A stretch of 41,290 bases of DNA. It comes from a virus. The stretch lies in the UHGV virus genome UHGV-0387525; one strand, given 5' to 3'. Made by a program: the position numbers and the translations under genes. This document shows positions 1-41,290 of this stretch, one piece after another; the stretch's first letter is position 1, and each line of letters begins with the position of its first letter. The notes beneath the pieces were generated by a model that was not told where the DNA came from, made no database searches, and worked only from the letters and a program-made list of their open reading frames with translations.

Positions 1-88
1 CTTCTACTCATGATATCTGGCAACAACCCTCTGTAGACCGCCATCCGGCGGTCTACAGAGGGTTGTTGCCAGATATCATGAGTAGAAG
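1..88. repeat. perfect inverted repeat, 42-bp arms (1-42 and 47-88) around centre ATCC
   Basis: 1-42 is the exact reverse complement of 47-88; 1-53 is also the exact reverse complement of 41225-41277, so the left arm may be an assembly foldback. Confidence 0.6.
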
Positions 89-306
89 AAGTATGCCAGT
101 TCCGCTTTTGAGCGCAGCCATTGTCTTGTTTTACAGGCTTTAAAAAGCCCATTCATCAATACCTTACCTGGCATTTTGCGCTTACCTGTTAAGTGAGTCT
201 GGATATAGTGACTCGTCGTTCCGGCTTCCTGTGCGAAGGCTTCACGCTCATCCGGAGTAAGTGCAAGCCAGTGCTTTTTGAAATCGAAATGTCCGTTATC
301 GCTCAT
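76..306 (-). CDS. small HTH DNA-binding protein, Cro/CII-like by position (first gene of minus-strand early arm)
   Basis: 76 aa; helix-turn-helix-like segment AQEAGTTSHYIQTHLTGKR; divergent from repressor candidate across an operator-bearing intergenic region. Confidence 0.5.
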   Translation of the reverse strand: MSDNGHFDFKKHWLALTPDEREAFAQEAGTTSHYIQTHLTGKRKMPGKVLMNGLFKACKTRQWLRSKAELAYFFYS

Positions 307-460: not shown

Positions 461-1045
461 ATGAAAAGTATCCAGGACGTCCGCAGGCAAAATCTCAACG
501 ACTTGATCGACCGTGAATTCAATGGTGTTCAGACGCGGATGGCAGAAAAACTTGGAACTCAGGCAAATCTGGTAAACCGCTGGGCTCTTGGCAAGAAGGT
601 TATCGGCGACCAGGTTGCACGAAAAATTGAAGCGGCCGCCAATAAACCCCGTAACTGGCTTGATATTGATCGTTCGCTTTCTCAGGAGGGTTTTCAGCCT
701 GTCGGCCCGAGCGATATAGGTCAGCTGGCGGCTCACAACCTGGAACGCTGGATGAGCGAAAGCCGCGACCTTTCAACACAGGGAAAACTTCACCGCGCAT
801 CCGGCGTCGCCCAGGTGACAATCAGCCGCCTGTTAAACAATGAGGTCAGCGTTTCCATTTCCACCCTGGAGAATGTTGCATCCGCATTCGGGCGTCACGG
901 ATATGAACTACTGATTCACCCGCACGACCCTGCGACTATCAACTATGACCGCTCACGCTACGCATTGTTACCCGAAACCGAGAAAGCAAAGATCGAAAGT
1001 TACATTGAATTTGTCATCAACCAGAACGAAAAAAGCAAACAATAA
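461..1045 (+). CDS. tandem-HTH transcriptional regulator; candidate non-cleavable immunity repressor
   Basis: 194 aa with two XRE-like HTH segments (RMAEKLGTQANLVNRWALGKK and ASGVAQVTISRLLNNEVSVSI); no S24 peptidase-like motif seen; monocistronic, followed by intrinsic terminator; weak RBS. Confidence 0.5.
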   Translation: MKSIQDVRRQNLNDLIDREFNGVQTRMAEKLGTQANLVNRWALGKKVIGDQVARKIEAAANKPRNWLDIDRSLSQEGFQPVGPSDIGQLAAHNLERWMSESRDLSTQGKLHRASGVAQVTISRLLNNEVSVSISTLENVASAFGRHGYELLIHPHDPATINYDRSRYALLPETEKAKIESYIEFVINQNEKSKQ

Positions 1046-1066
1046 AACTATAGTTTTCAGTAAGTA

Positions 1067-1090
1067 AGCCGCCTCATGGCGGCTTTTTTA
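1067..1090 (+). terminator. rho-independent terminator
   Basis: stem agccgcc/ggcggct, loop tcat, then TTTTT. Confidence 0.7.
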
Positions 1091-1102
1091 TTGCCAGATA
1101 GA

Positions 1103-1117
1103 TTACCTTACGGGTAA
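1103..1117. promoter_or_regulatory. operator-like palindrome TTACC-N5-GGTAA
   Basis: ttaccttacgggtaa; preceded by TTGCCA -35-like hexamer at 1091-1096. Confidence 0.6.
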
Positions 1118-6993: not shown

Positions 6994-7163
6994 AATTAGT
7001 ATCTGAATAGGAATGAGTTGCTATGAGTTAGCTGTTAATCATTCCCACTCAATTATTTACGATAACCATAACCAATTGAGTGATAACATTTTTCCAAATC
7101 TCAATTTTTCCCGTACCGTTTTATATACCGTCACCGGAAATCAGTACCATGAAAAATGCCATG

Positions 7164-8962: not shown

Positions 8963-9242
8963 ACTTTCTCCTGTTTACTATCTATAAGCCAGTCAATTAT
9001 TGATGACTAAACCCGCATAGTAAACCATATATGAATCATTATTGTTCCATATCATATATCTCAATAAAAGTACTAATGATTTTACAGAACGAGCCAGCAG
9101 AGTGGGGGCAGTTGTACAGGAACCATAGACTTAATTTTGTATTTAATAATGCTATGGTGTAATAAACCTGAACATGTATTTAAAATACGTACTGATTCAT
9201 GATAGAATTCAAAGATAACTTTTCACCAACTCCGTTTTTGAT

Positions 9243-12388: not shown

Positions 12389-12492
12389 GTTAAATCTCCA
12401 GATAGTCGCAGCACCCGTTGCGCCGCATATCTGGTTATTCTATTACCTAAAAAACCATATATGGATAAAAAGACTATAAATACCAATAGATA

Positions 12493-12507
12493 TTACCTTT
12501 CGGGTAA
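12493..12507. promoter_or_regulatory. operator-like palindrome TTACC-N5-GGTAA
   Basis: ttacctttcgggtaa upstream of gene 12584..12841. Confidence 0.6.
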
Positions 12508-12544: not shown

Positions 12545-12564
12545 TACTGTATAAACATACAGTT
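12545..12564. promoter_or_regulatory. LexA (SOS) box
   Basis: TACTGTATAAACATACAGTT: CTGT-N8-ACAG, 17/20 match to TACTGTATATATATACAGTA. Confidence 0.7.
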
Positions 12565-13989: not shown

Positions 13990-14685
13990 ATGACAGCTAC
14001 AAAAAGCACGTCCATTTTTTCTTTCGAATCCCAAGCCGATATACGGGTAATCGTCATTAATGGTGAGCCATGGTTTATCGCTTCAGATGTTTGTCGGGCT
14101 ATAGGCATAGCAAACCATCGAGATGCTGTTCGAAAACTTGATGATGATGAGAAGGGCGTCGCTTCAACCGACACCCCTGGCGGTGAGCAAGAATCGATCA
14201 TCATCTCCGAGTCAGGCCTCTACACACTGATCCTCCGCTGCCGCGACGCAGTGACACCAGGCACTATCCCCTACCGCTTTCGCAAATGGGTTACAGGTGA
14301 GGTTCTTCCTCAGATCCGCCGCACCGGAAGTTACATTAAAAACTCGCTCCCGCAGGAAGAACGCATAAAGATGGTTGCCGACCAGGTAGCCAACGCCACA
14401 GCATCAGCAGTAATGCAGGCGATGAAGATAGAGAACAAAACCTACAGCGCCCCACTGAAGCCCGGCTACCGCAGCCTGATTCATTCTCCGTCTGGTGTTC
14501 TCGGCCTGACGGAGAACTCACTGCTGATGAATTTGCTGAACCAGTTGCAGGAAGACGGGCACGATGTATCGGGCGCGGCGGCGGAGCTGACAACCATGTT
14601 TTGCTACATCGTTGGTGTGAGTAAATGCCTGCGTGATATCCAGACTCACGCGGAGTACATCAACGACAAAGCAGGATTCTTCTGA
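13990..14685 (+). CDS. ant: antirepressor with N-terminal Bro-N domain
   Basis: 231 aa; Bro-N-like N-terminus (IRVIVINGEPWFIASDVCRAIGI...ESGLYTLILRCR); C-terminal segment paralogous to 12584..12841. Confidence 0.75.
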   Translation: MTATKSTSIFSFESQADIRVIVINGEPWFIASDVCRAIGIANHRDAVRKLDDDEKGVASTDTPGGEQESIIISESGLYTLILRCRDAVTPGTIPYRFRKWVTGEVLPQIRRTGSYIKNSLPQEERIKMVADQVANATASAVMQAMKIENKTYSAPLKPGYRSLIHSPSGVLGLTENSLLMNLLNQLQEDGHDVSGAAAELTTMFCYIVGVSKCLRDIQTHAEYINDKAGFF

Positions 14686-32397: not shown

Positions 32398-32487
32398 ATC
32401 AATGACTCCGTACGCAATTAAATTATTACCAATTTAACCACATATGATTTATTTATCGTAGGTGGTTGACATTTAACGCACAAATTA

Positions 32488-32502
32488 TTACCTTTCAGGT
32501 AA
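32488..32502. promoter_or_regulatory. operator-like palindrome with upstream TTGACA
   Basis: ttacctttcaggtaa; TTGACA at 32466-32471. Confidence 0.6.
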
Positions 32503-32824: not shown

Positions 32825-32901
32825 GTGGCATTAGCTCAGTTGGACAGAGCAACCGCCTTCTAAGCGGTTGGTCGCAGGTTCGAATCCTGCATGCCACGCC
32901 A
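32825..32901 (+). tRNA. tRNA-Arg (anticodon UCU)
   Basis: manual cloverleaf: acceptor GTGGCAT/ATGCCAC, D-arm GCTC/GAGC, anticodon stem ACCGC/GCGGT with loop CTTCTAA, T-arm GCAGG-TTCGAAT-CCTGC, discriminator G, encoded CCA. Confidence 0.9.
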
Positions 32902-33098: not shown

Positions 33099-33518
33099 AT
33101 GAAGACAATTGATATGTTGGCTAAGTATCTAAATGAATGGCCATTAAAATATTCTCGTATCGTTCAGGCTGAAGACTGCATTTTTTATGGCGTTTTTGCT
33201 GGTAATGAAATGCATTACGAAGTAATTCAGAGTGAGGGACTGGCCGGGTTAACTCTTAGCGAAGACCATGGTACTAGCGTTACGTTCCATGACTGGATAA
33301 CAGCACAACGTTCTGAAATGGAAAAAGGCGATGTTTTTGATATTTCTCGCGCTGTTTACGCTAAAGCAAAAAGTGATAATGATTACATGAGCGAACACTT
33401 ATACAACATGAAGTTACAATGCCTGCATGCGGCGCTTATTCAGAATGGGCACTTCGATAAAACAAGTGCCATCAATATTGCGGAAGCCATCAACGCTGGA
33501 TTTAATGCCATTAAGTAA
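33099..33518 (+). CDS. hypothetical accessory protein
   Basis: 139 aa; AAGGTGA RBS before ATG 33099; opposite strand to flanking structural genes. Confidence 0.5.
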   Translation: MKTIDMLAKYLNEWPLKYSRIVQAEDCIFYGVFAGNEMHYEVIQSEGLAGLTLSEDHGTSVTFHDWITAQRSEMEKGDVFDISRAVYAKAKSDNDYMSEHLYNMKLQCLHAALIQNGHFDKTSAINIAEAINAGFNAIK

Positions 33519-33522
33519 CACC

Positions 33523-33534
33523 GTGACATGTCAC
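33523..33534. repeat. 12-bp palindrome GTGACATGTCAC (copy 1)
   Basis: identical to 35974-35985; intergenic. Confidence 0.6.
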
Positions 33535-33608: not shown

Positions 33609-35084
33609 TTAAGCATATGGATCGTAATCTGTGATGGCCTTGCCTTGCTGGTTCTGCTGCCCGGGAATTCGCAGACGCTTCGACACAGGGAACGCAAACG
33701 TCAGCAGTAGCGCATCGCCTTTACCAGGAGAACGCCCAAGCCGCTCCTTGATATCTTCCTTCGGTTCGATAACGATTTTACCGTCCACTCGAACTTTGTA
33801 CTCTGCCGCAGACAGGTCGTCCGCTGTTTCCTGGTCATCCAGCATGCCGCCCAGCCTCAGCCATGTCTTGCATGAGTTGAACATCTCCCCACGCTTGTTG
33901 AGCATCTGCGGGTCAGTAGACGCGCCACCGAACGGAACAAGTTGCCATGTACGACCCCAGCCATCACCGATTGACTTCAGACCAGTTCCGTAACCGAAGT
34001 CGATGAACACTGCGTCAGCCTGGTACTGGTCTTCAAAGTCAGCGATACGCTTCGCCATAATCAGATCGTCAGTGGTCTTGTTGCCAGTCCACAGCACCTT
34101 ACTGTGCAGCCCCTGCCGCAGGTATATCACAGCGTCATCAACGCCGGAGTATGCCGGGTCAACGCCGATTATCACCGGAGCATGTGCAACCTGCGCAGCG
34201 GTTACCACCCGTTTCATTGCCTCGTCAGTAAGGCCGGTAGGGATAAACTGCAATTCAGATGCATCCGGGAATATGCCGCGCACACGGATTTTAACGAAGT
34301 CGCTGTCTTCCCCGTAGTCATCAACCCATTTCTGCAACTGCTGTTTGTTAGTGCCTTCCACCGTCCGGCTGTCAATCTGCGCAGTTTTCCAGCGGTGTTT
34401 ATATTTGCGGAAACATTCGCGAAAACGCCCGGTGTTACGTGTAGGGTTTCCGAACGCCACCCAGATAATCTCAGTGTCTTCGTCCGTAAGCGCACCCTCA
34501 GCAACTTCCCACACCAGATCCGCAATGTTCGACGCTTCATCGAATACCACGATGATGCGTTTGCGCTCGTTGTGTAGTCCGGCGAATGCCTCAGTGTTGT
34601 GCTCAGACCAGGGTATTGCGTCAGCCCGCCACCGCTTGTCGTGCCCAGGGTCATTGCTGTACATCGCGGTAGCGGTACAGGTAAACCAGTCTTTCGTGAT
34701 AGCAAGGTTCGACCACTTGATAATTTCCGGCCAGGTCTTCGTTCGTAGCTGGTTGTCGGTGTTGGCGGTCACCACGACCTTACAATCCTCGCAAGTGGAC
34801 ATGCCCCAGTTGATCAGCATTGAGATGAATGCGGATTTACCAATACCGTGACCAGAAGCGCGTGCCAACATAAGCGGCTGATAGCGCGTCTCTGGATTCT
34901 GCAGGTGATCACGTATCTCTCGGAACGCATCAGCCTGCCACTGACGTGGGCCGGTAGCATGTGCCAGTTCAGTCCCCTCTTCCCCCCACGGGAACGCATA
35001 GAGGGCATAGCCAAGCGGATCGTGAGTGAACCCTGCAATATCCTCGATTAACTGCTCTTCAGGAGATAACGCTGTATCTGTCAC
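33609..35084 (-). CDS. terminase large subunit
   Basis: 491 aa; Walker A-like ARASGHGIGKS; acidic nuclease-type C-terminal half. Confidence 0.85.
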   Translation of the reverse strand: MTDTALSPEEQLIEDIAGFTHDPLGYALYAFPWGEEGTELAHATGPRQWQADAFREIRDHLQNPETRYQPLMLARASGHGIGKSAFISMLINWGMSTCEDCKVVVTANTDNQLRTKTWPEIIKWSNLAITKDWFTCTATAMYSNDPGHDKRWRADAIPWSEHNTEAFAGLHNERKRIIVVFDEASNIADLVWEVAEGALTDEDTEIIWVAFGNPTRNTGRFRECFRKYKHRWKTAQIDSRTVEGTNKQQLQKWVDDYGEDSDFVKIRVRGIFPDASELQFIPTGLTDEAMKRVVTAAQVAHAPVIIGVDPAYSGVDDAVIYLRQGLHSKVLWTGNKTTDDLIMAKRIADFEDQYQADAVFIDFGYGTGLKSIGDGWGRTWQLVPFGGASTDPQMLNKRGEMFNSCKTWLRLGGMLDDQETADDLSAAEYKVRVDGKIVIEPKEDIKERLGRSPGKGDALLLTFAFPVSKRLRIPGQQNQQGKAITDYDPYA

Positions 35085-35677
35085 TGATTACCATCCTGAC
35101 GTTCTTTGAGTCGCTTCCTGGCTGCTGCTATGCGATCAGCAATTGTCACATTCACATTAACATCCAGGCGTTCTTTGAATGCGTTGACGTCGACGTGCTT
35201 ACCAATCAGTTCGAGGTTCTTCACCTTGTCAGGCCATTTAATTTTTTTGAGGATTGTCTCTATCGAATCCTCGTTCATGTTCATGATGGTCGATGACAGA
35301 TCAAAGCCGCTAAGCGTAGTGCGCCAGATTTTCGGCCACTCGCGGATTGGCTTAAGGCTCCCATCGTCGTTGAGGATGTCGATCACGTCCATCTGGTCGA
35401 TCTCCACCAGGCGCATGAGAACGTAATCAGCACTGACGCGCATTCGTTTGTTGCGCTCCTCCATCAACTCGGCAATCCGTTTCTGAATGCGTTCATCGCG
35501 CATCATGACACTGGCTTTAACTGCCGCTGTATTTGGGGAGAATCCTGCGTTAATCGCAGCCTGAGTCTGATTTTCAGGCGTTTTGATGTATGACTGGCAA
35601 TAAGCCTCCTGCATTGCTGTTAGTGGCTTAAATTGCGTTGATTTGCGTTTATAGGTTTTAGGTTCAGCAGGCATCAT
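35081..35677 (-). CDS. terminase small subunit
   Basis: start moved to MMPAEP (ATG 35677, GGTGG RBS); AAINAGFSPNTAAVKASVMMRDERIQKRI resembles small-terminase DNA-binding region; overlaps terL start. Confidence 0.65.
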   Translation of the reverse strand: MMPAEPKTYKRKSTQFKPLTAMQEAYCQSYIKTPENQTQAAINAGFSPNTAAVKASVMMRDERIQKRIAELMEERNKRMRVSADYVLMRLVEIDQMDVIDILNDDGSLKPIREWPKIWRTTLSGFDLSSTIMNMNEDSIETILKKIKWPDKVKNLELIGKHVDVNAFKERLDVNVNVTIADRIAAARKRLKERQDGNQ

Positions 35678-35684
35678 AACCACC

Positions 35685-35716
35685 GTGGTAATAGTTACCG
35701 TTGTGGTAATAGTACC
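35685..35716. promoter_or_regulatory. two direct repeats GTGGTAATAGT(T)ACC upstream of terS
   Basis: 35685-35699 and 35703-35716; contain GGTAA..TTACC half-sites in reversed order. Confidence 0.4.
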
Positions 35717-35720
35717 ATGC

Positions 35721-35746
35721 AAAATAAAGCCGCCATAGTTGGCGGC
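35721..35746 (-). terminator. terminator between small gene and terS
   Basis: stem gccgcca/tggcggc, loop tagt; on minus strand followed by TTTATTTT. Confidence 0.55.
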
Positions 35747-35751
35747 AGTAT

Positions 35752-35964
35752 TCAAAGTCCATCAAATTCATCGTAAAAACTCTCGTCAAGATACCCTTTC
35801 CATTTACCGCGAATGAAAATTACATCCTCGCCGCAAGGGTGCTGACTGTCGATAACTATATCCCTCCTGGCGCAACCATACTTATGCATGAGAAATTTAA
35901 CCTCTTTCGGAAAATTAGCTGAGTTATCTCTCATATCTTCAAGGTCGTAGCGTATTTTTGGCAT
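35752..35964 (-). CDS. small hypothetical protein
   Basis: 70 aa from ATG 35964 with AAGGTG RBS. Confidence 0.4.
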   Translation of the reverse strand: MPKIRYDLEDMRDNSANFPKEVKFLMHKYGCARRDIVIDSQHPCGEDVIFIRGKWKGYLDESFYDEFDGL

Positions 35965-35973
35965 AACACCTTC

Positions 35974-35985
35974 GTGACATGTCAC
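35974..35985. repeat. 12-bp palindrome GTGACATGTCAC (copy 2)
   Basis: identical to 33523-33534; between genes 35982..36323 and 35752..35964. Confidence 0.6.
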
Positions 35986-36323
35986 ACTATTAATTTCGTT
36001 TCATGCCAGCCTTTGGTCACCCAGCATTGCGAGTCACCATTACACGGGCATGAATTAACTGGAACTCTCTCGCCGCACTTACCGCAACGTTTTCTGCTGA
36101 TCGATTTTATACGCCCGCGCACCCGGGCATCATCCTGGCGGATCAGCAGCGCGATGTACTCGGCCATTTCATAGGGATCTCGACCAGGGCGCCGGGCGGC
36201 GCAGTTCCGCTCCAGCATTTCAATTTCCTGAGCATCAAGCACAATCTCCAGCTTACGCACACCAGATGCAGCTTGTCTGGCTCTCTGAGCGGCTTTGCGC
36301 TCTGCTGCTGATTTAGCCATCAA
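35982..36323 (-). CDS. basic protein with C-terminal Cys cluster (possible zinc-binding regulator)
   Basis: 113 aa; CGKCGERVPVNSCPCNGDSQC; upstream of packaging genes. Confidence 0.4.
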   Translation of the reverse strand: MMAKSAAERKAAQRARQAASGVRKLEIVLDAQEIEMLERNCAARRPGRDPYEMAEYIALLIRQDDARVRGRIKSISRKRCGKCGERVPVNSCPCNGDSQCWVTKGWHETKLIV

Positions 36324-36594
36324 TATTTACCTTTATCGCGTATACCTTTACCGGTTTATCGCCGAAGTGGGGATGTGTGATTGTCTTGATTTCATATCCG
36401 TCATACGGGACGTCAATTCTACGACTGGAGTCGTCGCGCTTCGGATATCCCTTTGTGATAATCAGTCGGTCATAATCCCTGAACATAATTCGCTTATTCC
36501 AGTAGTCATTACACAGGCGATACTCTTCCGTTTTCTCTTCGCGAATGATGGCATCGAAGTATTCACCTTTAACGGCTAGTTGCAGGTTAGCCAC
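36313..36594 (-). CDS. ASCH-like domain protein
   Basis: GTG start with AGGAGG RBS; LAVKGEYFDAIIREEKTEEYR matches ASCH-like pattern as I recall it. Confidence 0.45.
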   Translation of the reverse strand: MANLQLAVKGEYFDAIIREEKTEEYRLCNDYWNKRIMFRDYDRLIITKGYPKRDDSSRRIDVPYDGYEIKTITHPHFGDKPVKVYAIKVNIDG

Positions 36595-37237
36595 GATTAA
36601 CCTCCTGCTGCGGTGCTGCTGGCAGTGGCATCCAGTGGGTAATACTACCTGGATATAAACTCTTTGCTGGCCCCCAGTAGCCATCTGTATTAACACGCAT
36701 AACCTCACAGCCATCAAAACCATCAGTTACAAGAACGTATTCATAAGGTTCCGGCATCCTTTCGCTTACCGGAATCCAACCATCCGGAGTTACCGGATAG
36801 TTGCCAGCCAGCTCGTTCAACTTGTAAGTCTGGCTTACAGGTTCGGCACCATGAAGCATGGCGGCGCGGCAGGAGTTCCAGGCAAATAGTGCGGCTTCTT
36901 CCACTGAAGGCGGAGAGTATCGCTCGATAAACGCCTGTGCATTTGACAGCCTCCACTCATGAGGCAATACCGGCGCTGGCGGGGCGATGCGTCCAAGCAA
37001 CTTATTTACCTCTTTCGCCATCGCGTCATATTTATCTAAATAGCGATTAGCTTCTAAGCAGACTCGGTGCATCTGATCTGAGTTAACTCGTTTAACGGGA
37101 TCTGCTTCCAGCGATGCCAGTGCAATCCGTGCCAGTTCTTCCGCTTCTTCTGCTGGCAGTACAACGTTGCTACCCGGTCCGTATGTTTCGCGCCACTGCT
37201 TGATTGTCAGCAGTCGCCCTTTGGTAATAGTGATCAT
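36587..37237 (-). CDS. DUF551-like phage protein
   Basis: C-terminal WIPVSERMPEPYEYVLVTDG...THWMPLPAAP pattern. Confidence 0.5.
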   Translation of the reverse strand: MITITKGRLLTIKQWRETYGPGSNVVLPAEEAEELARIALASLEADPVKRVNSDQMHRVCLEANRYLDKYDAMAKEVNKLLGRIAPPAPVLPHEWRLSNAQAFIERYSPPSVEEAALFAWNSCRAAMLHGAEPVSQTYKLNELAGNYPVTPDGWIPVSERMPEPYEYVLVTDGFDGCEVMRVNTDGYWGPAKSLYPGSITHWMPLPAAPQQEVNRG

Positions 37238-37749
37238 GCCGCGTTTCCTTCTTTCTTATTAACAATCACACCGTCATATATTTCATTAAGGTGCCCTCTC
37301 AACTCCATGCGCCTTAATGCAGATAACATGTAATCGCATTCAACCTGCTTATTCCCGGTAAATGGCTTATCGTCAGGATTACCCCAACAGCAATTACCCC
37401 TGGGCCATCCATGTACTTTCCGTACTCTTCCGTTAACAACGTGAAGTAATCCCCAGCCGGGAGGTAAATCCTCAACTGAAATAATTTCCGGCTCACTAAT
37501 AAAGAATCGCCAGTCGCCCATGCCAAGTGAGGGATTTTTACGGAAACGCTTTTTTCTATCTGCCAACAAGTCAGCACGAGAACACTTCGCCTCTATCAGG
37601 CATGATGCTGAATTTCTGAATCCCATAGCATCTGGCTGTTCTCCGGTACTGGTTACAGCAACAAAGCGGTCATGAAAGCAAACCTTGAACCCGTTGCGCT
37701 TAAGGAACTTGTACGCAATCTGACAGAGTTCGTGGTGTGTTAACGCCAT
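37234..37749 (-). CDS. putative PD-(D/E)xK nuclease-like protein
   Basis: start at ATG 37749 with AAGGAGAG RBS; PDAMGF...IEAKCS resembles D-x(n)-E-x-K motif. Confidence 0.4.
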   Translation of the reverse strand: MALTHHELCQIAYKFLKRNGFKVCFHDRFVAVTSTGEQPDAMGFRNSASCLIEAKCSRADLLADRKKRFRKNPSLGMGDWRFFISEPEIISVEDLPPGWGLLHVVNGRVRKVHGWPRGNCCWGNPDDKPFTGNKQVECDYMLSALRRMELRGHLNEIYDGVIVNKKEGNAA

Positions 37750-39208: not shown

Positions 39209-39255
39209 TTAAAAACCACATAAGACACTAAATCAATAGATTTTAGAATATTTTA

Positions 39256-41194: not shown

Positions 41195-41209
41195 TTACCT
41201 TTGAGGTAC
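41195..41209. promoter_or_regulatory. operator-like palindrome TTACC-N5-GGTAC
   Basis: ttacctttgaggtac between cro-like terminator and zinc-finger gene. Confidence 0.5.
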
Positions 41210-41220
41210 GAATAGATATG

Positions 41221-41243
41221 AAAAGACCGCCGGATGGCGGTCT
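41221..41243 (-). terminator. terminator after cro-like gene (across the circular junction)
   Basis: 8-bp stem agaccgcc/ggcggtct with 4-nt loop; on minus strand followed by TTTTC. Confidence 0.5.
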
Positions 41244-41290
41244 ACAGAGGGTTGTTGCCAGATATCATGAGTAGAAGAAGTATGCCAGTT
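41224..41290. repeat. terminal direct repeat of 35-101, identical except the 4-nt hairpin loop is inverted (GGAT vs ATCC)
   Basis: direct comparison of the two window ends; 41236-41290 equals 47-101 exactly. Confidence 0.85.

What the first reader, a model, noticed from the sequence alone, without database searches (positions are those of the whole stretch)
35678..35750. Terminator followed by direct repeats immediately upstream of terS
On the minus strand a hairpin plus TTTATTTT (35721-35746) precedes two direct repeats GGTA(A)CTATTACC (35685-35716) and then the terS RBS. The repeats contain operator half-sites in reversed order. This resembles a late control point (activator site or antitermination) and no Q-like antiterminator gene was recognised in the window.
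Basis: seen in the sequence. Interest (0 to 1): 0.45.

Follow-up and report, generated by a model that had tools for sequence, protein, structure and literature searches.

The report
Repressor operators guarding the terminase genes
The "direct repeats" in front of the small-terminase gene are the seams between two back-to-back binding sites for the phage's own lysogeny repressor, placed on a probable promoter just after a transcription terminator; the same arrangement is already annotated in the related phage epsilon15, so this is an ordinary control point.

Summary
On the minus strand there is a strong hairpin plus TTTATTTT (35746-35721), then GGTACTATTACC and GGTAACTATTACC, then the SD GGTGG and the terS start.

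The repeats are not the functional unit. They are the junctions of two tandem palindromes of the form TTACC-N5-GGTAA. O1 (35709-35695) is exact. O2 (35691-35677) has one mismatch and covers the SD and the first ATG.

The window is a complete phiV10/epsilon15-like (Uetakevirus) genome. It holds 11 exact copies of this palindrome against 0.00 expected, all between genes. They include sites flanking the gene for a homologue of the SPC32H repressor.

The epsilon15 RefSeq record annotates the orthologous site as "repressor, lysogeny" and the hairpin as a rho-independent terminator.

Across 11 lineages the invariant bases are TG-n-TA-n-TAT plus the O1 half-sites. The GGTA that creates the first "repeat" is lineage-specific.

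My best reading is a −35-less extended −10 promoter for terS-terL. It is insulated from early transcription by the terminator and shut off in lysogens by a repressor tetramer on O1+O2.

I found no support for an activator site, antitermination, a pac site or an RNA switch. The identical sequence is in phiV10 and in 502 of 5426 complete E. coli genomes.

The parts
35721..35746 (-). Intrinsic terminator ending the early-right operon: stem-loop 35746-35729, T-tract TTTATTTT 35728-35721
   Evidence: Scanner hit. Folds at -16.2 kcal/mol, z -3.99. Conserved in 8 of 11 lineages, with only wobble-compatible changes in Buttiauxella. Annotated as a rho-independent terminator at the orthologous place in epsilon15 and phiV10.
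35709..35717 (-). Candidate extended -10 promoter element TGgTACTAT (TG 35717-35716; hexamer TACTAT 35714-35709); predicted transcription start near 35702
   Evidence: TG, TA and TAT are invariant in 11 lineages, while n (G/T/A) and hexamer position 3 (C/G/T) vary. It has the same register to its operator as the scanner-called PL promoter TTGACA-17-AATTAT, whose last base (1165) is the first T of operator 1165-1179. No -35 was found. This is an inference; it has not been mapped.
35695..35709 (-).
   Evidence: One of 11 exact TTACC-N5-GGTAA sites against 0.00 expected. Orthologous to the epsilon15 protein_bind 'repressor, lysogeny' feature at 12-27. Half-sites are conserved with a free spacer in 11 lineages. 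No half-site substitution in 79 close relatives.
35677..35691 (-). Operator O2, TTACCacggtGGTTA (one mismatch), overlapping the SD and the first ATG; 18 nt from O1
   Evidence: TTACY-N5-GGTAA is kept at this place in 9 of 11 lineages, even where the SD sequence differs, and is degenerate in the two Klebsiella phages.
35680..35684 (-). Shine-Dalgarno GGTGG of terS
   Evidence: Read from the sequence. Annotated as an RBS in phage Tyrion.
35081..35674 (-). terS (197 aa from the second ATG), followed by terL at 33609-35084
   Evidence: Pfam Terminase_2, E 1e-29. 100% identical to TerS of phiV10, TL-2011b and ZX5. The 224-aa TTG-start version is not coding: 1-2 nt indels fall between O1 and O2 in three lineages.
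461..1045 (+). Gene for the presumed binding protein: prophage repressor Rep (194 aa), flanked by operator clusters (343, 391; 1103, 1165)
   Evidence: Full-length match to SPC32H Rep, PDB 5D50, E 3.5e-42. 43% identical to epsilon15 gp38, with NLVNRW conserved in the N-terminal domain. Operators.
35752..35964 (-). Small ORF (70 aa from the ATG; phrog_1541, unknown function) between the regulator gene and the terminator; an indel-variable passenger
   Evidence: Absent from phiV10, TL-2011b and typing phage 9, which keep only its last ~25 nt.

Best explanation
The element is the 5' control region of a two-gene packaging operon (terS-terL) in a phiV10/epsilon15-type temperate podovirus. It has three layers.

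(1) An intrinsic terminator (35746-35721) stops transcription coming from the early-right operon.

(2) Immediately after it lies a -35-less, extended -10 promoter, TGgTACTAT (35717-35709). It would start transcription near 35702 and give a leader of about 25 nt carrying the SD.

(3) Two tandem 15-bp palindromic operators, 18 bp apart, overlap that promoter. O1 covers the last base of the -10 hexamer and the start site. O2 covers the SD and the first ATG. In a lysogen, the SPC32H-type repressor is described as binding DNA as a tetramer through two pairs of DNA-binding domains. It would occupy O1+O2 and block RNA polymerase. When the antirepressor removes Rep, the promoter fires without a dedicated late activator or antiterminator.

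GGTAA-cta-TTACC is the seam between two adjacent palindromes. The first copy arises because the 'n' of TGn happens to be G in this lineage.

Shown here: the sequence features, their enrichment, their conservation, and the Rep homology. Inferred: Rep binding at this site, promoter activity, and the start site.
For: Motif statistics: 11 exact TTACC-N5-GGTAA sites against 0.00 expected in 100 shuffles, all between genes.

Link to Rep: sites cluster on both sides of the rep gene, as in a classical immunity region (343, 391 and 1103, 1165). Rep matches the solved SPC32H repressor over its full length.

Prior annotation: epsilon15 RefSeq marks the orthologous site as a repressor binding site and the hairpin as a terminator.

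Tetramer binding: Rep is described as binding palindromic sites as a tetramer, and one tetramer is said to suffice for repression (PMC9638917). Tandem sites 17-18 bp apart also occur at OR.

Footprint across 11 lineages and 9+ genera: TG, TA, TATTAC(C) and (G)GTAA are invariant or nearly so. The TGn 'n', hexamer position 3, both spacers and the linker vary.

Micro-evolution in 79 close relatives: variable columns are 1 of 29 in predicted constrained positions against 10 of 20 in free ones, Fisher p = 1.9e-4.

Register: it is identical to a strong scanner-called promoter at PL.

Operon boundaries: terS-terL is bounded by hairpin terminators at both ends (phiV10 annotation). The upstream gene is co-directional, so the operators can only concern terS-directed transcription.

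Related experiment: in the close relative ZX5, repressor overexpression cut holin transcription by 99.97% (PMC9782041).
Against: No binding, footprint or transcript-start data for this site could be found. The primary papers on epsilon15 and on SPC32H Rep are not held.

The promoter scanner finds no canonical promoter on this strand. There is no -35, and the -10 matches only 4 of 6.

The last two hexamer bases (A, T) are also the conserved flank and first base of the operator. Only TG and TA are independent evidence for a promoter, and they could instead be extended repressor contacts.

I assigned columns to 'constrained' or 'free' after I had seen the alignments, so the Fisher test is not blind.

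O2 is degenerate in the two Klebsiella phages.

The other late units carry a different conserved motif, CATATRTGGTT, that terS lacks. Late control in this phage group is therefore not fully explained by Rep alone.
Confidence: 0.6

Rival explanations
1. The operators are real Rep sites but there is no promoter here. terS-terL is transcribed by read-through from the early-right operon. Rep on O1/O2, together with the terminator, acts only as a roadblock or insulator that keeps stray transcription out of the packaging genes in the lysogen, in the manner of a 'stoperator'.
For: No -35 and no scanner-called promoter. The -10 is weak at 4 of 6. Three lineages have no terminator, so upstream transcription can enter. 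O2 sits on the RBS and ATG rather than on a promoter element.
Against: TG and TA are invariant outside the palindrome in 11 lineages and 79 close relatives, with the expected free positions varying. A roadblock does not predict this. In most lineages a strong terminator (z -3.99) would starve terS of read-through transcripts, and no antiterminator gene was found. In a lysogen the upstream operon is already repressed at OR, so a second block would be redundant.
Confidence: 0.2
2. One reading: the repeats are the binding site of a late activator, or part of an antitermination device that lets transcription pass the hairpin. The activator could be the 113-aa 'transcriptional regulator' encoded just upstream.
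For: This is the canonical position for a late switch, at the end of the early operon just before terS. A regulator-like gene (phrog_536) sits immediately upstream. There is no -35, which is typical of activator-dependent promoters.
Against: The repeat is not conserved as a repeat: its GGTA becomes GTTA or GATA. The conserved unit is the same palindrome that flanks the rep gene and occurs at 11 places. Nothing is conserved at -35 to -60 in lineages that lack the terminator, and those lineages also lack the adjacent regulator gene. The terminator is upstream of the repeats, whereas Q-type systems load at a promoter upstream of the terminator. No Q family hit was found.
Confidence: 0.07
3. The repeats are terminase small-subunit recognition sites, that is, part of a pac or cos region like lambda cosB R sites or SPP1 pacL, which also lie just upstream of terS.
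For: The position immediately 5' of terS, the repeated short motifs, and several GenBank records of this phage group that begin close to here.
Against: The motif is not specific to the packaging region. The identical palindrome occurs at 10 other intergenic places, including both sides of the rep gene. The GenBank records open at different bases: after the gp55 stop in phiV10, after the T-tract in epsilon15, at -101 in Tyrion and at the TTG in SPN9TCW. That indicates convention, not a mapped end. This window is a circularly closed contig with no end here.
Confidence: 0.05
4. The element works at the RNA level. In read-through transcripts the nested palindromes fold into a long hairpin that buries the SD and AUG of terS, so only transcripts with a particular 5' end are translated.
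For: The 111-nt read-through RNA folds at -36.9 kcal/mol, z -5.23. A second stem pairs CCAC with GUGG (the SD) and UAU with AUG. The leader from the predicted start is unstructured, at -9.3 kcal/mol, z -0.57.
Against: Such pairing is an automatic consequence of two tandem DNA palindromes. The consensus fold over 11 lineages is weak at -7.23 kcal/mol, with covariation term +0.09. It recovers only the O1 palindrome and a poorly supported long-range helix, and just one pair shows a compensatory change. There are no Rfam matches at E up to 1.
Confidence: 0.05

Closest known systems
Epsilon15 terS-proximal 'repressor' site and terminator (NC_004775.2, protein_bind 12-27 and stem_loop 39646-39672)
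   Same: Orthologous position and the same order of parts: terminator, then TGtTACTAT, then TTACCaaaacGGTAA, then TTACTtcggtGGTAA, then ATG. Epsilon15 also carries the same family of scattered sites, upstream of gp3/portal, tailspike, OL and the gene after the replication genes.
   Different: The spacers differ, and the window has the better O2 left half and the worse right half. The epsilon15 record marks one site only, with no O2 and no promoter. The annotation appears to be a prediction. I could not read the paper behind it.
SPC32H Rep/Ant switch (PDB 5D50/5D4Z; Kim and Ryu 2013; Kim et al. 2016)
   Same: The window encodes a full-length Rep homologue (E 3.5e-42). It also encodes antirepressor-type genes (BRO-N Ant) and a LexA-box-like site. 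Tetramer binding to palindromic sites (PMC9638917) fits tandem O1+O2.
   Different: Rep is only 43% identical to the epsilon15 and SPN9TCW repressors (the latter classified as Uetakevirus SPN1S). Binding to the terS site has not been shown, as far as I could establish.
Phage P1 C1 repressor with many dispersed operators
   Same: It works alike: one immunity repressor with operators scattered round the genome, each silencing its own transcription unit instead of a single early switch. This comparison rests on my own knowledge.
   Different: P1 operators are asymmetric 17-mers and C1 is unrelated. P1 late promoters additionally need the Lpa activator.
Mycobacteriophage L5 gp71 'stoperators'
   Same: Numerous repressor sites in short intergenic gaps, including the late region, that silence the prophage. 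This is relevant to the roadblock rival. It rests on my own knowledge.
   Different: Stoperators are asymmetric 13-mers that act in one orientation on elongating polymerase. The sites here are symmetric, and this one overlaps a promoter-like element.
Lambda late control (Q/qut at PR' with tR') and lambda cosB upstream of nu1
   Same: The same genomic address: the end of the early-right operon, just before the small terminase gene.
   Different: In lambda the promoter and Q-loading site precede the terminator. Here the terminator comes first. There is no Q homologue, and the motif is shared with the immunity region, which cosB R sites are not.

Membership tests
Epsilon15/SPC32H-type Rep operator | 15-17 bp palindrome with half-sites (A)TTACC / GGTAA(T) separated by 5 nt | tested here: met
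   O1 (35709-35695) is exact and O2 (35691-35677) has one mismatch. All seven annotated epsilon15 repressor sites have this form.
Epsilon15/SPC32H-type Rep operator | The same motif clusters around the repressor gene of the same genome (OL/OR) | tested here: met
   Sites at 343 (one mismatch) and 391 upstream of rep (461-1045), and at 1103 and 1165 downstream of it. The latter pair bracket a TTGACA-17-AATTAT promoter.
Epsilon15/SPC32H-type Rep operator | A cognate Rep protein is encoded | tested here: met
   The 194-aa protein matches 5D50 over residues 1-190, E 3.5e-42. NLVNRW is conserved with epsilon15 gp38.
Epsilon15/SPC32H-type Rep operator | Orthology to an annotated site, with half-sites conserved and spacer free | tested here: met
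   Six different O1 spacers occur across 11 lineages. Half-sites are intact in 9, with one mismatch in 2.
Epsilon15/SPC32H-type Rep operator | Physical binding by Rep and repression in vivo | not testable with these tools
   Needs EMSA or footprinting, or ChIP. The primary papers are not held.
Intrinsic (rho-independent) terminator | G+C-rich stem-loop directly followed by a T-tract on the transcribed strand | tested here: met
   7 pairs with 6 G-C, loop of 4, TTTATTTT. Folds at -16.2 kcal/mol, z -3.99.
Intrinsic (rho-independent) terminator | Conserved as a structure in relatives | tested here: met
   Present in 8 of 11 lineages. The Buttiauxella changes keep pairing through G-U. Absent in 3 lineages that have a different upstream gene.
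Sigma-70 extended -10 promoter | TGn immediately upstream of a -10 hexamer with A2 and T6 | tested here: met
   TGgTACTAT at 35717-35709. TG, T1, A2, T4, A5 and T6 are invariant in 11 lineages and 79 close relatives, while n and position 3 vary.
Sigma-70 extended -10 promoter | Recognisable -35 hexamer (not required for this class) | tested here: not met
   The scanner finds no promoter on this strand in 34500-37500. The -35 position falls in the terminator stem.
Sigma-70 extended -10 promoter | Mapped transcription start and activity | not testable with these tools
   Needs 5'-end mapping or a reporter fusion.
Q-type antitermination module (qut) | Q-family antiterminator gene upstream | tested here: not met
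   No Pfam Q or antiterminator family in any ORF from 41177 to 35752. The adjacent 113-aa protein has no Pfam, NCBIfam or PDB match.
Q-type antitermination module (qut) | Promoter and loading site lie upstream of the terminator that is overridden | tested here: not met
   The order here is terminator, then the promoter-like element and repeats, then the gene.
Terminase recognition site (pac / cosB) | Repeats specific to the packaging region | tested here: not met
   The same palindrome occurs at 10 other loci, including the immunity region.
Terminase recognition site (pac / cosB) | Virion DNA ends or packaging-series starts map here | not testable with these tools
   No read data are available. 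GenBank records open at inconsistent bases.
Known structured RNA (Rfam) | Match to a curated covariance model | tested here: not met
   No match at E up to 1 in 35000-36500 on either strand.

The most novel reading that the evidence does not exclude
Uetakevirus-type phages may run their late genes without any Q-like antiterminator. In that reading, the packaging operon is a free-standing unit fired from a -35-less extended -10 promoter and gated only by a Rep tetramer on tandem operators. The other late units (portal/head, tailspike, lysis) would use a second, undescribed signal, CATATRTGGTT, placed a fixed 56 nt after a Rep operator upstream of gp3. Transcription units would be punctuated by a conserved 12-bp palindrome, GTGACATGTCAC, next to their terminators. 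Together these would amount to an uncharacterised late-gene regulatory code in a phage group carried by about 9% of complete E. coli genomes.
Probability: 0.25. Interest if true: 0.5.

Novelty: already known. Interest (0 to 1): 0.22.

Why it matters
The result is mostly a clarification. It shows that a pair of "direct repeats" next to a gene start can simply be the seam of tandem palindromic operators. It also shows that the terS control region of phiV10-like prophages matches the repressor site and terminator already marked in epsilon15. These prophages are present in 502 of 5426 complete E. coli genomes, including O157 and other EHEC backgrounds.

For phage biology the modest point of interest is architectural. 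The immunity repressor appears to sit directly on the packaging operon, which lambda's repressor does not do, and there is no recognisable late activator. That matters for anyone engineering phiV10-type reporter phages or predicting which prophage genes leak in lysogens. The two additional conserved motifs noted in passing are the more open questions.

Tried and rejected
Rfam scan of 35000-36500 at E up to 1 gave nothing.

Consensus RNA folding of 11 lineages was weak at -7.23 kcal/mol with no covariation, so I rejected an RNA switch.

The canonical promoter scan on the terS strand found none, so the promoter call rests on conservation only.

Single-sequence AlphaFold2 of the upstream 113-aa regulator was unusable (pLDDT 45), and I ran no fold search. 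Its PDB, Pfam and NCBIfam searches were empty. Only phrog_536 'transcriptional regulator' matched.

I tried to read Kropinski 2007 (epsilon15 genome), Kim and Ryu 2013 and Kim et al. 2016 (SPC32H Rep/Ant). None is held. Literature searches for late-gene control in Uetakevirus returned nothing specific.

I first read the 77-aa ORF as an insertion. It is better read as a deletion in phiV10, TL-2011b and typing phage 9, which retain its 3' end. Other genera have the same C-terminal ...DEFDG(F/L)* coding remnant or gene.

I first thought the window ends were a simple 101-nt overlap. In fact the last 55 nt equal 47-101, and the first 46 nt are an inverted copy.

I looked for the CATATRTGGTT motif at terS. 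It is not there beyond a shared ATGGT.

I looked for heteroimmune relatives with different half-sites, to test co-variation of the terS site with OL and OR. All lineages recovered use the same half-sites, so the test could not be made.

Full report
WHAT THE WINDOW IS

The region matches phiV10, TL-2011b, O157 typing phages 9 and 10, and ZX5 at about 95% DNA identity, and epsilon15-group phages more distantly. TerS is 100% identical to that of phiV10, TL-2011b and ZX5, and 77% identical to that of epsilon15. These phages are members of, or close to, the genus Uetakevirus.

The late genes lie on the minus strand. The contig is circularly closed. Its last 55 nt repeat positions 47-101, and its first 46 nt are an inverted copy of 56-101, which looks like an assembly fold-back through a hairpin. 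The attP core reported for ZX5, phiV10 and epsilon15 is intact at 7053 (PMC9782041). The window is therefore one whole phage genome.

CHECKING THE OBSERVATION

Read on the minus strand, the order of features is:
- the stop codon of a small ORF (35754-35752);
- the hairpin GCCGCCA-ACTA-TGGCGGC (35746-35729) and TTTATTTT (35728-35721);
- gca, then TGGTACTATTACC, acaac, GGTAACTATTACC, ac, GGTGG, tt, ATG ATG.

The scanner calls the hairpin a terminator. It folds at -16.2 kcal/mol, z = -3.99. The repeat finder returns an exact 11-nt pair spaced 18 nt apart. The core occurs more often than in any shuffle.

The second ATG (35674) is the probable start. It gives the 5-nt SD spacing seen in epsilon15, it is the start annotated in TL-2011b, and the first ATG is mutated in two close relatives. 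The 224-aa TTG-start ORF annotated as TerS in phiV10 runs through the terminator and the repeats. It cannot be coding, because three lineages have 1-2 nt indels there.

WHAT THE REPEATS REALLY ARE

The epsilon15 RefSeq record annotates positions 12-27, just upstream of terS, as protein_bind 'repressor, lysogeny'. It annotates the last 27 nt of the record as a rho-independent terminator. That site reads TTACCaaaacGGTAAT. It is the palindrome that spans the gap between the two repeats, not either repeat.

All seven annotated epsilon15 repressor sites have the form (A)TTACC-N5-GGTAA(T). The window holds 11 exact TTACC-N5-GGTAA sites against 0.00 expected in 100 shuffles, plus four sites with one mismatch.

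One exact site is 35695-35709 (O1). A one-mismatch site is 35677-35691 (O2), 18 nt away, covering the SD and the first ATG. The unit GGTAA-cta-TTACC is therefore the seam between two adjacent palindromes.

All sites lie between genes. They fall:
- on both sides of the repressor gene (343 and 391; 1103 and 1165);
- upstream of int (6889), of tailspike (12493), of the gp3/portal unit (32488) and of terS;
- around the antirepressor genes (13613, 13706, 14758);
- upstream of the DUF1064 gene that follows the replication genes (39194, 39256);
- after the terminator behind the cro-position gene (41195).

The positions match those in epsilon15.

WHO BINDS THE SITES

ORF 461-1045 (194 aa) matches the solved repressor of the epsilon15-like phage SPC32H over its whole length (5D50, E 3.5e-42). 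It is 43% identical to epsilon15 gp38, and an N-terminal segment, NLVNRW, is conserved.

Operators flank this gene in the way OL and OR flank a classical repressor gene. One pair brackets a scanner-called promoter, TTGACA-17-AATTAT (10 of 12).

A secondary source describes SPC32H Rep as binding palindromic sites as a tetramer, with pairs of DNA-binding domains drawn from different dimers, and one tetramer sufficing for repression (PMC9638917). Two adjacent palindromes are what such a protein would need. Tandem sites 17-18 bp apart also occur at OR in epsilon15 and in the window.

In the close relative ZX5, repressor overexpression reduced holin transcription by 99.97% (PMC9782041). That result is compatible with direct control of late units but does not prove it.

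Binding at the terS site is an inference. I could not obtain the primary papers.

PHYLOGENETIC FOOTPRINT

I collected terS upstream regions from phages and prophages of Escherichia, Salmonella, Klebsiella, Citrobacter, Pseudocitrobacter, Scandinavium, Superficieibacter, Pseudescherichia, Buttiauxella, Erwinia and Samsonia. TerS identity ranged from 66% to 100%.

In the 11-sequence alignment, the invariant or nearly invariant bases are TG, TA, TATTAC(C) and (G)GTAA. O1 spacers differ (ACAAC, AAAAC, TAAAA, AAAAT, ATAAC, ATATT, TTCAT).

O2 is kept as TTACY-N5-GGTAA abutting the ATG in 9 of 11 lineages, even where the SD differs. It is degenerate in two Klebsiella phages. O1-O2 spacing is 18-20 nt.

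The G that makes the first 'repeat' begin with GGTA is T or A elsewhere, so the direct repeat is lineage-specific.

The terminator is missing in three lineages, which carry a different upstream gene, while everything downstream is retained. Samsonia has a differently arranged region that still contains ATTACCgcgccGGTAAT upstream of terS.

MICRO-EVOLUTION IN CLOSE RELATIVES

Among 79 IMG/VR relatives with identical TerS, the 11 variable columns fall as follows:
- on the n of TGn;
- on -10 position 3;
- on both spacers and on the linker;
- on the first ATG and on one base upstream;
- only once in a predicted contact position, the already degenerate right half of O2.

That is 1 of 29 constrained columns against 10 of 20 free ones, Fisher p = 1.9e-4. 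I assigned the classes after seeing the alignments, so this is supportive, not blind.

THE PROMOTER INFERENCE

TG-n-TA-s-TAT is the pattern of an extended -10 element. Its last T is the first T of O1. At PL, the -10 hexamer AATTAT ends on the first T of operator 1165-1179, which is the same register.

The operon terS-terL is closed by hairpins at both ends (phiV10 annotation). Its upstream neighbour is co-directional. Operators here make sense only if transcription toward terS has to be blocked in a lysogen whose early operon is already off. That points to a local promoter, with a start predicted near 35702.

Three things count against this. No -35 exists and the scanner finds no promoter. The hexamer matches only 4 of 6. 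Its A and T are also constrained by the operator.

I put the whole model at 0.6. That O1 and O2 are repressor operators I would put at about 0.85. That a promoter lies here I would put at about 0.55.

RIVALS

- A pure roadblock role for the operators (0.2) is the serious alternative.
The unexplained 113-aa regulator next door keeps it alive.
- A terminase recognition site (0.05) is unlikely because the motif is shared with the immunity region. The GenBank records are also opened at different bases.
- An RNA switch (0.05) is suggested by a -36.9 kcal/mol fold of the read-through RNA that buries the SD and AUG. That pairing is inherent in tandem palindromes, and the consensus fold shows no covariation. 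Rfam has no match.

COMPARISON AND NOVELTY

The element is the orthologue of a feature already annotated in the type phage of the genus. It is sequence-identical in phiV10 and TL-2011b. It is found at 80% or more coverage in 501 of 5426 complete E. coli genomes.

It works like other phages whose immunity repressor has dispersed operators, such as P1 C1 and, for the roadblock version, L5 stoperators. Both comparisons rest on my own knowledge.

What I add is the tandem O2, the re-parsing of the repeats, and the conserved TGnTAnTAT. I rate it already known, with low interest.

SIDE OBSERVATIONS

Two conserved motifs came up that I could not explain. The first is a 12-bp perfect palindrome, GTGACATGTCAC, at the ends of transcription units next to terminators. 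The second is CATATRTGGTT upstream of the other late units, at a fixed 56 nt after a Rep operator upstream of gp3 in seven genera. These two motifs, not the finding itself, are where something new about late control in this phage group might lie.

Noticed in passing
window 35974-35985 and 33523-33534; L011 (epsilon15) 2142, 19517, 39612; L014 (SPN9TCW) 2174, 19663, 38658; L015-L024: A perfect 12-bp palindrome, GTGACATGTCAC, occurs twice exactly in the window (0.00 expected). One copy overlaps the stop codon of the 113-aa regulator gene. The other sits just after the hairpin downstream of terL, so the two bracket the terS-terL unit. In epsilon15 and SPN9TCW it is at these two places and also at the end of the long structural operon, each time next to a terminator. 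It is conserved in prophages of 8 or more genera. Function unknown. It could be a protein-binding site at the boundaries of transcription units or modules.
   Followed up: partly
window 9022-9034, 12452-12464, 32435-32447, 39213-39225 (all minus strand); L011 2988, 19940, 24751, 35953; L015-L023: The motif CATATRTGGTT lies on the transcribed strand upstream of the lysis cassette, tailspike, gp3/portal and the DUF1064 gene, at the same four places in epsilon15. Upstream of gp3 it starts exactly 56 nt after the start of an exact Rep operator in seven genera, and it continues as the highly conserved CRTATRTGGTTAAATTGGTAATAATTTAAT. It is absent at terS. It is a candidate late-promoter or activator element and is not annotated in epsilon15.
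   Followed up: partly
window 35982-36323 (-): A 113-aa protein (phrog_536 'transcriptional regulator', homologue of epsilon15 gp49 and phiV10 gp55) sits at the end of the early-right operon. It has a Cys-rich C-terminus (CGKCG...CPCNGDSQC). It has no Pfam, NCBIfam or PDB match, and the single-sequence AF2 model was unusable (pLDDT 45). It occupies the position where lambdoid phages carry Q, and its role is unknown.
   Followed up: partly
window 35752-35964 (-): A small ORF (70 aa from the ATG; phrog_1541, unknown function) lies between the regulator gene and the terminator. phiV10, TL-2011b and typing phage 9 lack it but retain its last ~25 nt (GATGAATTTGATGG..TGA). That suggests a deletion in those phages, not an insertion here.
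   Followed up: partly
window 12545-12564: A LexA-box-like palindrome, TACTGTATAAACATACAGTT, lies between the tailspike gene and a small plus-strand ORF, next to Rep operator 12493-12507. The epsilon15 and SPN9TCW regions have the same box upstream of the gp19 gene and the corresponding SPN9TCW gene. From memory, this may be the SOS-controlled SPC32H-type antirepressor gene. A separate BRO-N Ant homologue is at 13990-14685.
   Followed up: no
window 32825-32901 (+) and 33099-33518 (+): A tRNA-Arg(TCT) gene and a 139-aa ORF with no family match sit on the opposite strand, between terL and the portal unit, like a moron island. A TTGACA-N17-TACCTT promoter-like sequence that I picked out by eye in the listing (not scanner-called) points toward them and overlaps Rep operator 32488-32502.
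   Followed up: no
window 1-101 and 41236-41290: Contig-end artefacts. The last 55 nt repeat positions 47-101 (circular closure). The first 46 nt are the reverse complement of 56-101, a fold-back through the terminator hairpin GACCGCC...GGCGGTC. The true genome length is therefore about 41.19 kb.
   Followed up: yes
window 1066-1117 and 41195-41250: The 'terminator then Rep operator' arrangement seen at terS recurs twice. One is after the rep gene (hairpin 1066-1085, then operator 1103-1117). The other is after the cro-position gene (a hairpin I saw by eye in the sequence listings, not scanner-called, then the one-mismatch operator 41195-41209).
   Followed up: partly
L002 (phiV10 NC_007804.2) 41-715: phiV10 TerS is annotated as 224 aa from a TTG that lies upstream of the terminator. 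The conserved start is the ATG 81 nt further on, as annotated in TL-2011b. This is a probable over-extension in the RefSeq record.
   Followed up: yes
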